Positions 59,345-62,533 of a DNA stretch of 64,000 nt are shown in pieces. The notes under the pieces are model-generated. The model saw only the letters and a program-made list of their open reading frames with translations, was not told the origin of the DNA and searched no databases. Each line of letters opens with the position of its first letter. Position 1 is the stretch's first letter. A program made the position numbers and the translations under genes. Source of the stretch: Escherichia phage 121Q; the sequence record NC_025447.1; one strand, given 5' to 3'.

Positions 59345-59833
59345 TTATACGGATTCAACGATACGTGCCATCTTTTCCGCTCGTGAAGTGGTTTGTTTAT
59401 ACCATGTACTATCACGCAATTCTTTACCAGCAGTTTTGTAATCAGCTTTACCTAATGCGGTCATTGCTTTTTTAAATTTCAAAACTTTGGTTTTTCCCAT
59501 TTGGAATACCATTAACCATAATACACGTTGTACCTGTACTGGTGCGGTCATACCGAATTGTTCATAAATTGATTTTGCATCATTGTACGCAGTTTGAGCA
59601 TCTTTGAGAAGAAGTTGGTCAGCTTGAGCTTCGGTCAAACCATTCTTGAAATTTTCACCAGGAAGAACTAGATGACCATAACCAATAGTATCAAGACCTA
59701 AACTGTCTTTATATACCCAAAACTTATCATTTTTAAAATAACCAAGTTTTTTCTGATAAGCAATAGTTCCTTCAAATTCTTTAATTTCCTTAAAAAATTG
59801 CTCATCTGTATTTTTAATTTCCCATTTACTCAT
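59345..59833 (-). CDS. endolysin, T4 lysozyme-like (GH24)
   Basis: EFEG...KDSLG.DTIGYGHL with Glu/Asp/Thr at T4L E11/D20/T26-equivalent spacing; exact TATAAATA late box upstream. Confidence 0.85.
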   Translation of the reverse strand: MSKWEIKNTDEQFFKEIKEFEGTIAYQKKLGYFKNDKFWVYKDSLGLDTIGYGHLVLPGENFKNGLTEAQADQLLLKDAQTAYNDAKSIYEQFGMTAPVQVQRVLWLMVFQMGKTKVLKFKKAMTALGKADYKTAGKELRDSTWYKQTTSRAEKMARIVESV

Positions 59834-59849
59834 AAAGATATCCTCGTTT

Positions 59850-59857
59850 TATTTATA
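59850..59857 (-). promoter_or_regulatory. T4-type late promoter box TATAAATA upstream of endolysin gene
   Basis: Exact TATAAATA on minus strand, ~17 nt upstream of ATG, followed by GAGGA RBS. Confidence 0.45.
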
Positions 59858-59869
59858 GTGCTAAAATAT

Positions 59870-62533
59870 TTATTGACATGCCTCCAAACGACGAGCCATT
59901 AACTCCGCACGGCGTGTGGTTTGGCGATACCAAGCAGAATTGCGGATTTGTGCCGCTGCTTGTTTATAATTACCTTTTGCCATTTCTGATAACATAGTTT
60001 TAAATTTCAATACACCACCTTTACCCATCTGAAATACCATTTGGCATAGTACTTGTTGAGCAAGATAAGGAGTTTTCATGTTATATGAAGCATAAATTGA
60101 TTTGGCATCATAAATTGCTTTACTACTATCACGAACTAACATATCATTTGCTTGTTGTTCAGTTATTCCATCAGAGAAGTTTTCACCGCTAACAATTAAG
60201 TGACCGTAACCAATAGTTGGATATCCACGACTATCTAAATAACGCCAGAACTTACCATTACGATAATATCCCTTTGCTTGTTGATATTGTAATGTACCCT
60301 CATATTCTTTTAATTCAGAAATAAACTGAGCATCACCTGGAACAACTTTCCAATCTATGGCTGTTTTATCAACATTACCTATATTATAAGTTGGTTGCTC
60401 AACTGGCGTAGTTGAAACACCACTTCTTTGTGTTCTTCTTCGACGAGGAACATGTCGTGAACCACGTTGTGAATAACCTGTACCAATTGTTTTAATTTTT
60501 GTAGTAACTACTAATTCATCACTATCAACAGAAGGTTGCACTACTGCTTGAGGTGCAGATTGATTGGTTGCTTTTCCTGCAATTAATGTTTTATTGGCTG
60601 CGTCAGAACCAGTACCAGTTTGAGATGCATAAAATAGACCCGGATCAACTGAACCGCTAAAACCAAGCACGTTAGCTGATGTAACACGTATTTCAAACTG
60701 TATAACACCATTTGCTTTACCAACAACTTGGCCTTTTTGAACAACATCTTTGTTTAATAAATCAGATTGAATATTATAAAATACAGATTTATATCCTGAC
60801 TTATGTTGTATTAACAGTGCACCATTAGTAATTACTATTACACCACCATCGGGTGCAACTATGTCACCTTTACATTGTATTTCCCATCCAGAACGATCTG
60901 ACTTCCCACCACTTTGTGTTGGAACACCTTTCCCCCAATAACCATATTGGCGAATAGTACCACTACATGGCATGAACATATGTAAACCTTCATATGTAAT
61001 ACTATATCCAGTCATCCCAGGGTCAGATGTCATTAAATCTTGAGATTGCACTTGTTCAGTTTCTGATGTATAGTTAACAAACTGAACAGCTTCAGTGTCT
61101 TGTGCTACGGGTAATTCTGGTGATACATCATTTGCTGGTTGTGGTTGTACTGGTGATTCACTAGAACCACTTCCACCACCTTGTCTTGGTGGTTCAACAT
61201 AACTACCATGATTTTCAGCGTTAACCCATGCAGCAATATCATGAATGTGTTCATTAAGACCAGCAGATGGTGTTCTAAAGTTTGGTGCAGTAAATTCAGC
61301 AGTACCGCTATTACCACCACTATTAACTGTTAATGTTTGTCCACCACCACTAATAATTGCTGATGATGATCCAATTAGGTTTGCAGATGTTGCGGCAGAA
61401 ATAGAAGCATTTGAACCAGCCGTAATATCAGTACTGCTACCACTTTGCATACGTAATGATGCAGCAGTAACTAAACGAAGGTCTGCCCCAGAATTAACAA
61501 CAACTTGTCCACCAACTTTTGCATCAAGAGCACCAATTAGATCTAATTTAGTATTTGCACCAACTCGTGCATTGAAATCTTGTCCGGTTTCAATATTATA
61601 TGAACGTCCAGCAGTAATATTAATATCTTGACCAGCACGAATATTAATATTCTTATCACAGTGCATGTCAATATCACCTTCACCAGTGAATTTTATACGT
61701 GCAGTGCCATCACGGTTAATTAAAAGAACATCACCAGTAGCTTCTGATAAAAGAAGTTGTGCACCACTACGTGTTTTTATTACGACACCTTCATTTTTAC
61801 GAGAACCAACACGTGTATCGTTTACTGGGTTATTAAATTGTGTATCTTGATATCCATCTGGGTCTTGATCCCACGTTGGTGCTGTTAATTCCTCTTCAGT
61901 ATATCCATCATCAATAATAAAACTATTACCACGTGGCGAAGACATACCATATACAGTACTGGTGGTTTGTCGAGTACTACTACGATTCGCCAACCCAGCT
62001 TCTTCGTCATATAAAAGGTTTTGCTTTTTAAGACCTGCGATAATTGGAACGTTAGCATATTTGTCTTGCATATCGGTAGTGATAGTGTTACGATCATAGT
62101 CAGTAACAGGAAGTGGCATATCAGTTCCACCATAATTACTTACTTCAGTTGCCATGCCTGGAACCATAGTATTCATACGCTGGTCATATACACAACCAAT
62201 CCAATATGCTTGGAATGTACGGGCTTGTGCAAAAATTACAACAACTGTACACCCTACATCTGGTGGTACTGCCCAAAAACCGTATCCTTTTGGATATTGA
62301 CCATATGCATCAGCACTTGGAATACCTGGTGTTTTACCAGCAAAAGGAGACATGTAAGATGCTTCTATCCATGATTCTTTTGAGTTTTTATCACTTTGAG
62401 AACCTTGTATCCAAACTTTCAGTTTTCCTGATTTAGTTGGATCTCTGTTATCCATAACAGTTGCTAACTGCGGATAAGATGGGTCAAAACGACCCAACTG
62501 CTGTTGTGCATACTTTTTACTTGTATCTGCCAT
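59870..62533 (-). CDS. baseplate central spike gp5-like: N-terminal OB-fold, beta-helix, degenerate M23-like domain, C-terminal lysozyme domain
   Basis: N-terminal ATVMDNRDPTKSGKLKVWIQG like gp5/VgrG OB-fold; LytM-like segment ending GVIQFEIRV without His ligands; last ~160 aa closely paralogous to adjacent endolysin (PTIGYGHL, MVFQMGK, AWYRQTTRRAE). Confidence 0.8.
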   Translation of the reverse strand: MADTSKKYAQQQLGRFDPSYPQLATVMDNRDPTKSGKLKVWIQGSQSDKNSKESWIEASYMSPFAGKTPGIPSADAYGQYPKGYGFWAVPPDVGCTVVVIFAQARTFQAYWIGCVYDQRMNTMVPGMATEVSNYGGTDMPLPVTDYDRNTITTDMQDKYANVPIIAGLKKQNLLYDEEAGLANRSSTRQTTSTVYGMSSPRGNSFIIDDGYTEEELTAPTWDQDPDGYQDTQFNNPVNDTRVGSRKNEGVVIKTRSGAQLLLSEATGDVLLINRDGTARIKFTGEGDIDMHCDKNINIRAGQDINITAGRSYNIETGQDFNARVGANTKLDLIGALDAKVGGQVVVNSGADLRLVTAASLRMQSGSSTDITAGSNASISAATSANLIGSSSAIISGGGQTLTVNSGGNSGTAEFTAPNFRTPSAGLNEHIHDIAAWVNAENHGSYVEPPRQGGGSGSSESPVQPQPANDVSPELPVAQDTEAVQFVNYTSETEQVQSQDLMTSDPGMTGYSITYEGLHMFMPCSGTIRQYGYWGKGVPTQSGGKSDRSGWEIQCKGDIVAPDGGVIVITNGALLIQHKSGYKSVFYNIQSDLLNKDVVQKGQVVGKANGVIQFEIRVTSANVLGFSGSVDPGLFYASQTGTGSDAANKTLIAGKATNQSAPQAVVQPSVDSDELVVTTKIKTIGTGYSQRGSRHVPRRRRTQRSGVSTTPVEQPTYNIGNVDKTAIDWKVVPGDAQFISELKEYEGTLQYQQAKGYYRNGKFWRYLDSRGYPTIGYGHLIVSGENFSDGITEQQANDMLVRDSSKAIYDAKSIYASYNMKTPYLAQQVLCQMVFQMGKGGVLKFKTMLSEMAKGNYKQAAAQIRNSAWYRQTTRRAELMARRLEACQ

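What the first reader, a model, noticed from the sequence alone, without database searches (positions are those of the whole stretch)
59345..62533. gp5-like spike with a degenerate M23-like module and a C-terminal lysozyme domain paralogous to the adjacent endolysin
Domain order is OB-fold, beta-helical repeats, then a LytM/M23-like segment (GDIVAPDGGVIVI...LIQHKSGYKSVFYNIQ...GVIQFEIRV) in which the usual HxxxD and HxH zinc-ligand positions are replaced (W/E and Q.E), then a GH24 lysozyme domain at the extreme C-terminus; T4 gp5 has the lysozyme in the middle and the beta-helix last. The lysozyme domain is about half identical to the free endolysin encoded just downstream, suggesting domain duplication or exchange. 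A degenerate LytM domain could act as a peptidoglycan-binding module.
Basis: partly seen in the sequence, partly recalled or inferred. Interest (0 to 1): 0.55.

Follow-up and report, generated by a model that had tools for sequence, protein, structure and literature searches.

The report
Tail spike carrying dead M23 domain
This is the cell-puncturing tail spike of a Rak2-like giant E. coli phage, carrying a catalytically dead M23-type domain and a wall-digesting lysozyme at its far end; the architecture was already published for sister phages, and only the dead but conserved state of the M23 domain is a new detail.

The parts
59870..62533 (-). Central baseplate spike gene (887 aa plus stop), orthologue of RaK2 gp078, CBB_240 and phAPEC6 gp241
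   Evidence: ORF. PHROG 13211 matches full length, 1815 bits. 95% nt identity to phAPEC6/PBECO4. Orthologues detected in virions by MS.
62186..62467 (-). OB-fold domain (residues 23-116)
   Evidence: Pfam Phage_base_V E=7.8e-7, above cutoff.
61784..62185 (-). Conserved middle region (residues 117-250), fold unassigned; the most conserved part of the protein
   Evidence: 62% mean pairwise identity over 18 homologues. No Pfam family with a credible match.
61289..61783 (-). VgrG/gp5-type triple beta-helix (residues ~251-415)
   Evidence: Pfam DUF2345. Clade profile hits VgrG/gp5 spikes 9gtr, 9jg8, 4uhv, 9f4a.
61241..61249 (-). HxH motif (H429-I-H431) just after the helix; candidate intermolecular histidine cage or apex
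   Evidence: H-x-H present in 18/18 homologues. Motif meaning taken from bioRxiv 10.1101/2023.02.25.529910. No sequence-level match to gpV-type apex.
60992..61189 (-). Linker 1 (residues 449-514), Gly/Ser/Pro-rich and poorly conserved; holds one recombination breakpoint
   Evidence: 35% mean identity. pLDDT<50 for residues 485-518. Breakpoint at about residue 490-500.
60614..60991 (-). Degenerate LytM/M23-fold domain (residues ~515-640)
   Evidence: Ligand table. dN/dS 0.03-0.17.
60359..60613 (-). Linker 2 (residues 641-725), predicted disordered, with a conserved short motif (S671, L674, V675, I683, G691, S692, P696) followed by a basic run
   Evidence: pLDDT<50. Conservation.
59873..60358 (-). 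C-terminal GH24 (T4-type) lysozyme domain (residues 726-887); catalytic E745, D767, T772
   Evidence: Pfam PF00959 E=2.3e-11. PDB hits to T4-like gp5 lysozyme and T4L. Catalytic columns.
59345..59833 (-). Free 162-aa GH24 lysozyme, paralogue of the spike's C-terminal domain
   Evidence: 52% identity, E=2e-63. E/D/T intact in all 11 orthologues. dN/dS 0.02-0.11.
58934..59329 (-). gp25-like baseplate wedge gene, last gene of the apparent spike-lysozyme-gp25 unit
   Evidence: Pfam GPW_gp25. PHROG 43.
58906..58929 (-). Terminator-like hairpin (10-bp stem plus T-run) directly after the gp25-like gene
   Evidence: A consensus match only.
59505..61060 (.). Recombination patch, about 9-10% diverged from phAPEC6/PBECO4-type phages and flanked by near-identical DNA

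Best explanation
The 887-aa protein is the trimeric central baseplate spike of a Rak2-like (Asteriusvirus) jumbo myovirus. The OB-fold and the conserved middle region dock it to the tail-tube end. The VgrG/gp5-type beta-helix, closed by a conserved HxH motif, is the rigid piercing part. Behind a flexible linker each chain carries a two-domain cargo: a LytM/M23-fold domain that has lost its zinc site and cannot be a peptidase, and a GH24 lysozyme with intact catalytic Glu/Asp. On sheath contraction the spike takes this cargo across the outer membrane, and the lysozyme cuts peptidoglycan locally so the tube can pass. The dead M23 domain is kept as a non-enzymatic binding module. Most likely it holds or positions the lysozyme on the cell wall, or controls the lysozyme domain, as other degenerate LytM domains do for wall hydrolases. 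The free 162-aa lysozyme is an old duplicate of the cargo lysozyme, co-transcribed with baseplate genes. Its role (lysis enzyme or accessory) is open. Shown here: architecture, fold, loss of ligands, purifying selection, paralogy. Shown in the literature: virion location of orthologues. Inferred: delivery mechanism, role of the dLytM domain, metal binding at HxH.
Against: No experiment on this protein family shows lysozyme activity, peptidoglycan binding or any dLytM partner. The cargo follows an apex-type HxH motif, so where three ~45-kDa cargos sit on a piercing tip is unexplained. They might be cleaved off or folded back. The RaK2 study did not detect gp078 in virions, although three other phages did detect the orthologue.
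Confidence: 0.7

Rival explanations
1. The dLytM domain is purely architectural. It would be an assembly or docking module (for example packing the cargo against the beta-helix or the baseplate hub, or helping trimer register) with no role in binding the cell wall or regulating a hydrolase.
Against: It is tethered between two disordered, poorly conserved linkers, which is more typical of a mobile cargo than a fixed structural element. It always travels with the lysozyme, including through the recombination patch.
Confidence: 0.2
2. The dLytM domain mimics host EnvC/NlpD. Once in the periplasm it would bind and de-repress host amidases (AmiA/B/C) or lytic transglycosylases, recruiting host autolysins to open the wall at the penetration site.
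Confidence: 0.07
3. The M23 module is still an active peptidase that uses non-canonical ligands.
For: E551 sits at the Asp position in the window protein, and RaK2 and P0004 keep the first His. Strong purifying selection.
Against: No homologue keeps more than one of the three zinc ligands. Both HxH histidines and the catalytic His are absent in 18/18, and the replacing residues are variable (V/I/L/F/W; N/G/D/Y/S), so no alternative site is conserved.
Confidence: 0.03
4. About the small gene only: the free 162-aa lysozyme is the phage's lysis endolysin, and not a baseplate-associated or accessory enzyme.
For: It is a soluble T4L-like enzyme with an intact E/D/T triad in all 11 orthologues and strong purifying selection. 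It is not listed in the phAPEC6 virion proteome, and CBB_239 is not confirmed as structural. T4 likewise has a free endolysin paralogous to its gp5 lysozyme domain (own knowledge).
Against: It lies between the spike and gp25 genes with no internal terminator and no holin or spanin neighbour. Buttimer et al. predict a separate SAR-type lysozyme (CBB_187; homologues in GAP32, 121Q, RaK2) as the endolysin. The Vibrio relative has no free copy annotated next to its spike.
Confidence: 0.35

Closest known systems
[quoted passage not shown]
   Same: Orthologues with the same length and domain order. phAPEC6 gp241 is 98.8% identical in amino acids. The literature already notes the unusual order, a possible central M23 domain (pfam01551, E=6.48e-4), the lysozyme paralogues and virion location.
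   Different: The papers treat the M23 hit as a possible peptidase domain and do not report loss of the zinc site. This phage's cargo half is a distinct allele, at most 90.9% nt identical to any database phage.
T4 gp5 (tail-associated lysozyme, central spike)
   Same: N-terminal OB-fold, GH24 lysozyme domain and triple beta-helix in one spike protein. T4 also has a free lysozyme paralogue, gene e (own knowledge).
   Different: In T4 the lysozyme sits between the OB-fold and the helix (chain residues ~190-326 of 584), and the helix is capped by a separate PAAR protein. Here the lysozyme is last, after an HxH motif, a linker and a dLytM domain. T4 gp5 has no M23 domain.
phi29 gp13 (tail-tip 'morphogenesis protein 1')
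   Different: The gp13 M23 domain is an active zinc endopeptidase, and the domain order is lysozyme then M23 (own knowledge of Xiang et al. 2008). It is not fused to a spike beta-helix. Here the M23 domain is dead and precedes the lysozyme.
Degenerate LytM regulators: EnvC, NlpD, DipM, SpoIIQ
   Same: LytM fold without a complete zinc site. These are the best sequence-profile hits (SpoIIQ, DipM) and the best structural hits (EnvC, DipM). They act by binding partners, mostly wall hydrolases.
   Different: Those are bacterial periplasmic or septal proteins with coiled-coil or LysM accessories. This domain is part of a phage virion spike, fused in cis to a lysozyme. No partner is known.
Evolved VgrG spikes with C-terminal effector domains (e.g. 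V. cholerae VgrG-3)
   Same: An enzyme cargo that degrades peptidoglycan is attached after the spike beta-helix (own knowledge). The helix is VgrG-like by profile.
   Different: No gp27-like N-terminal half: the protein starts with the OB-fold. It is a phage protein, not T6SS. It has an HxH motif rather than a PAAR-capped blunt end.
P2 gpV / phi92 gp138 apex-bearing spikes
   Same: OB-fold plus beta-helix plus a conserved HxH motif at the helix end.
   Different: In gpV the HxH lies within ~15 residues of the C-terminus. Here 456 more residues follow. No sequence match to solved apex domains.

Membership tests
Peptidase M23 / LytM fold | Homology to M23 domains at sequence-profile level | tested here: met
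   Clade profile against PDB gives SpoIIQ 8.3e-8, DipM 8.9e-8, LasA 2.3e-6, TagE, zoocin A, ShyA, EnvC. The single sequence against Pfam PF01551 gives E=5.6e-4 but 20.5 bits, below the 28.7 cutoff.
Peptidase M23 / LytM fold | LytM three-dimensional fold | tested here: met
Peptidase M23 (active enzyme) | HxxxD zinc ligands | tested here: not met
   Aligned positions are R547 and E551. Across 18 homologues they are R/H/N/S and E/T/I/D, and none has both H and D.
Peptidase M23 (active enzyme) | HxH motif (catalytic His plus zinc ligand) | tested here: not met
   Aligned to V610-I611-Q612. No His in any of 18 homologues.
Peptidase M23 (active enzyme) | Catalytic His of the Y-x-H-L motif | tested here: not met
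   Aligned to N587. N/G/D/Y/S in homologues.
Degenerate LytM (dLytM) regulators (EnvC/NlpD/DipM type) | LytM fold lacking a complete metal site yet evolutionarily maintained | tested here: met
   dN/dS 0.03-0.17.
Degenerate LytM (dLytM) regulators (EnvC/NlpD/DipM type) | Binds and activates a peptidoglycan hydrolase | not testable with these tools
   Needs binding and activity assays or multimer modelling with coordinates. No coordinates were available.
T4 gp5-type central spike | N-terminal OB-fold (Phage_base_V) and C-terminal-type triple beta-helix | tested here: met
T4 gp5-type central spike | Lysozyme domain inserted between OB-fold and helix | tested here: not met
   The lysozyme is at residues 726-887, after the helix.
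T4 gp5-type central spike | Component of the virion | not testable with these tools
   Literature for orthologues only: phAPEC6 gp241 with 7 peptides, CBB_240, fENko-Kae01. Not detected in RaK2.
GH24 (T4-type) lysozyme, both copies | Pfam PF00959 above the gathering score | tested here: met
   44.5 and 37.0 bits against a cutoff of 22.3.
GH24 (T4-type) lysozyme, both copies | Catalytic Glu, Asp and Thr equivalents of T4L E11/D20/T26 | tested here: met
   E745/D767/T772 in the spike and E/D/T in the free copy. Glu and Asp are invariant in 23 sequences. Thr is Asp or Ser in four spike orthologues.
Apex-bearing spikes (P2 gpV type) | Conserved HxH at the end of the beta-helix | tested here: met
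   18/18. Criterion.
Apex-bearing spikes (P2 gpV type) | HxH near the C-terminus; apex domain fold; Fe ion | tested here: inconclusive
   456 residues follow the motif. No profile hit to solved apex domains. Metal binding is not testable here.
Evolved VgrG | gp27-like N-terminal module fused to the gp5-like part | tested here: not met
   The protein begins with the OB-fold. No Phage_GPD or gp27-like match.
Endolysin (free 162-aa lysozyme) | Placed in a lysis cassette with holin or spanin | tested here: not met
   Flanked by the spike and gp25-like baseplate genes. This order is conserved in 10 relatives.

The most novel reading that the evidence does not exclude
The conserved dead M23 domain is a virion-delivered regulator of wall hydrolases. 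It would be a phage version of EnvC/NlpD/DipM that either switches on the spike's own lysozyme only after delivery to the periplasm, or de-represses host amidases or lytic transglycosylases at the penetration site. This would be the first dLytM activator described in a phage particle.
Probability: 0.12. Interest if true: 0.7.

Novelty: already known. Interest (0 to 1): 0.3.

Why it matters
If the dead M23 domain proves to be a regulator or a wall-anchoring module, it would show how a giant phage controls a potentially self-damaging lysozyme on its tail tip. It would also extend the EnvC/NlpD/DipM type of hydrolase control from bacterial cell division to phage entry. In practical terms, the published and database annotations ("M23 family peptidase", "GH24 domain amidase") should not be read as a second enzymatic activity. 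Anyone mining these jumbo phages for enzybiotics should expect muramidase activity only. The recombination patch shows that the cargo half is exchanged as a unit between related phages.

Tried and rejected
(1) The search for homologous proteins with the module alone and with a clade profile returned only two fragments, so the large clustered database was of no use here. The exhaustive HMMER search found 8 representatives. It was redone with the admissible representatives. (3) Model coordinates are not exposed to the sandbox, so I could not inspect the former active-site groove, map conserved residues onto the surface, or check dLytM-lysozyme contacts. (4) A profile of residues 1-450 found VgrG/gp5 helices but no gpV/gp138 apex, so the apex reading rests on the motif alone. 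(5) Recent gene conversion between the two lysozyme paralogues is rejected. They cluster by type, and within-phage identity (40-62%) is no higher than between-phage identity. (6) No further lysozyme or M23 copy is present in the 64-kb window. (7) The sigma-70 promoter scan was at chance level (16 found against 17 expected). (8) NCBIfam gave only a far sub-threshold lysozyme match. (9) Literature searches for 'degenerate LytM' plus phage, and for Asteriusvirus plus M23, found no description of the dead site.

Full report
WHAT IS THERE. The coordinates cover two minus-strand ORFs: 59870..62533 (887 aa) and 59345..59833 (162 aa). Downstream come a gp25-like wedge gene (58934..59329), an HNH/homing-endonuclease gene (58100..58864) and a gp6-like wedge gene (54634..58095). 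The DNA is about 95% identical to Escherichia phages phAPEC6 and PBECO4 (genus Asteriusvirus, Rak2-like jumbo myoviruses of ~350 kb). [quoted passage not shown]

ARCHITECTURE. Pfam gives Phage_base_V (OB-fold) at residues 23-116, DUF2345 (VgrG-type beta-helix repeats) around 278-329 and Phage_lysozyme at 765-882. A clade profile of residues 1-450 hits VgrG and gp5 spikes in PDB (9gtr 3e-6, 9jg8, 4uhv, a T4-like gp5 9f4a, phiKZ gp164 helix). Directly after the helix lies H429-I-H431, and an H-x-H is present there in all 18 homologues examined. According to bioRxiv 10.1101/2023.02.25.529910, an HxH near the end of a spike marks the iron-binding histidine cage of an apex domain, and the same motif keeps trimeric fibres in register. 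I found no sequence match to solved apex domains, so this remains an inference from the motif. Next come a Gly/Ser/Pro-rich linker (449-514), the M23-like module (~515-640), a second linker (641-725) predicted disordered (pLDDT<50), and the lysozyme domain (726-887).

DEGENERACY. The HMMER alignments to DipM, zoocin A and LasA place the motifs as follows: HxxxD at R547...E551, the Y-x-H catalytic His at N587, and HxH at V610-I611-Q612. In 18 homologues no sequence has His at either HxH position or at the Y-x-H position. None has both H and D of HxxxD; RaK2 and one metagenomic protein keep only the first His. The replacing residues vary. The domain is not decaying. Its dN/dS against four relatives is 0.03-0.17, the same as the lysozyme domain (0.02-0.15). 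Its mean identity over 18 homologues (50%) equals the lysozyme's and exceeds that of the linkers (35-37%). About twenty positions are invariant or nearly so. This is a maintained non-catalytic LytM domain (dLytM).

DISTRIBUTION. An exhaustive HMMER scan of 1.84 billion representative proteins found only 8 hits. Seven are 872-984 aa long and share the same architecture; the eighth is an 84-aa fragment. tblastn against 50,697 phage records found 71 records, all with genomes of ~310-386 kb where complete, infecting Escherichia, Klebsiella, Salmonella, Erwinia, Yersinia, Serratia, Pectobacterium, Cronobacter, Xanthomonas and Vibrio. M23-fold domains as such are common in phage tail proteins such as tape measures, hubs and gp13-like lysins.

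THE TWO LYSOZYMES. The spike domain and the free protein are 52% identical over 159 aa (E=2e-63). Both share a ~13-residue insertion between the catalytic Glu and Asp relative to T4L, and both keep Glu/Asp/Thr. In a neighbour-joining tree the spike domains form one clade and the free lysozymes another. The spike domain of Vibrio phage 2.275.O, which has no free copy annotated beside its spike, branches outside both. This fits one duplication before the enterobacterial Rak2-like phages radiated, with no recent conversion between the paralogues. The tree has no bootstrap and a distant outgroup, so I hold this moderately. No third copy lies in the window.

IS THE SMALL GENE 'THE ENDOLYSIN'? This is not established. 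The order spike, free lysozyme, gp25 is conserved in ten relatives. The only terminator-like hairpin follows gp25. Buttimer et al. [quoted passage not shown] So the free lysozyme appears to be non-virion, but its role is open.

PRIOR KNOWLEDGE. Simoliunas et al. [quoted passage not shown] Buttimer et al. 2017 reported a possible central M23 domain (pfam01551, E=6.48e-4) in CBB_240 and its Rak2-like homologues. Searches for a description of the dead zinc site found nothing. The finding is thus essentially a rediscovery, with one unreported refinement.

MECHANISM. The best-supported reading is a piercing spike that carries a tethered cargo into the periplasm. The lysozyme opens the wall. The dLytM domain serves as a binding module, either for peptidoglycan or for the lysozyme, by analogy with EnvC, NlpD and DipM, which control wall hydrolases (PDB titles). 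Rival readings are a purely architectural role, mimicry of EnvC to recruit host amidases, and residual peptidase activity, which nearly excludes.

AN UNEXPECTED EXTRA. Against phAPEC6 the window shows only five mismatches across 61065-62684 (spike residues 1-~490 and the upstream gene) and none across 59145-~59500. It is about 9-10% diverged across ~59505-61060. The N-terminal half is 99.7-99.8% identical to 17 database phages, while the patch is at best 90.9% identical to any record. The patch runs from linker 1 through dLytM, linker 2 and the lysozyme into the first two-thirds of the free lysozyme gene, with dN/dS 0.02-0.03. So the cargo half was replaced by homologous recombination with an unsampled relative. 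This is exchange between phages, not between the paralogues.

VERDICT. However, the object is a published protein family, and the 'endolysin' label and the proposed function are unproven. Interest is modest at 0.3. It would rise only if the dLytM domain proves to be a virion-borne hydrolase regulator.

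Noticed in passing
window ~59505-61060 (flanks 59145-59500 and 61065-62733): A sharp mosaic. The cargo half of the spike plus the first two-thirds of the free lysozyme gene is ~9-10% diverged from phAPEC6/PBECO4-type phages (best database identity 90.9%), while both flanks are 99.7-100% identical. Breakpoints lie in linker 1 and inside the free lysozyme gene, and the changes are almost all synonymous.
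   Followed up: partly
window 58100-58864 (-): An HNH/homing-endonuclease ORF (PHROG 559, E=1.6e-57) is inserted between the gp25-like and gp6-like baseplate genes. An ORF of the same size is present at that position in phage JNE01 but absent in A4, GAP32, BF, 7t3, XaC1, CBB and Hallingskeid, so it is a mobile insertion in the baseplate module.
   Followed up: partly
window 61241-61249 (-), spike residues H429-I-H431: An HxH motif conserved in 18/18 homologues sits at the end of the beta-helix but 456 residues before the C-terminus. An apex-type histidine cage followed by cargo is an unusual topology that raises the question of where the cargo sits on the tip.
   Followed up: partly
window ~60440-60525 (-), spike residues ~671-703: Inside the otherwise disordered, poorly conserved linker 2 there is a conserved short motif (S671, L674, V675, I683, G691, S692, P696) followed by a basic run (RHVPRRRRTQR). 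It could be a docking strand or a processing site, but it remains unexplained.
   Followed up: no
window 58906-58929 (-): A strong terminator-like hairpin (10-bp stem, T-run) lies immediately after the gp25-like gene, and none lies between the spike, free lysozyme and gp25. The three genes look like one transcription unit.
   Followed up: no
protein P0009 (metagenomic homologue, 917 aa) and spikes of phages 7t3, fENko-Kae01, Hallingskeid, XaC1: Some orthologues have non-canonical residues in the lysozyme catalytic columns. P0009 has KVGDES and FLRQDG at the Glu and Asp columns. The T26-equivalent is Asp (7t3, Kae01, Hallingskeid) or Ser (XaC1). The cargo lysozyme may not be active in every lineage.
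   Followed up: no
locus L002 (Vibrio phage 2.275.O) 2031-5065; locus L001 (RaK2) 4709-6494: The Vibrio relative goes straight from the spike to a small ORF in the position where relatives encode gp25, with no free lysozyme annotated. RaK2 has four small ORFs (two on each strand) inserted between the spike and the free lysozyme.
   Followed up: partly
window 44583-54584 (-): A 3333-aa ORF lies next to the gp6-like wedge gene. By position and size it corresponds to the 382-kDa virion protein gp245 of phAPEC6. It was not analysed.
   Followed up: no
window 62547-64000 (-): The gene upstream of the spike (homologue of the 85-kDa virion protein phAPEC6 gp240; PHROG 11190 positions 281-750 of 753) runs off the window end. 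The listed 468-aa ORF is only its C-terminal part.
   Followed up: yes
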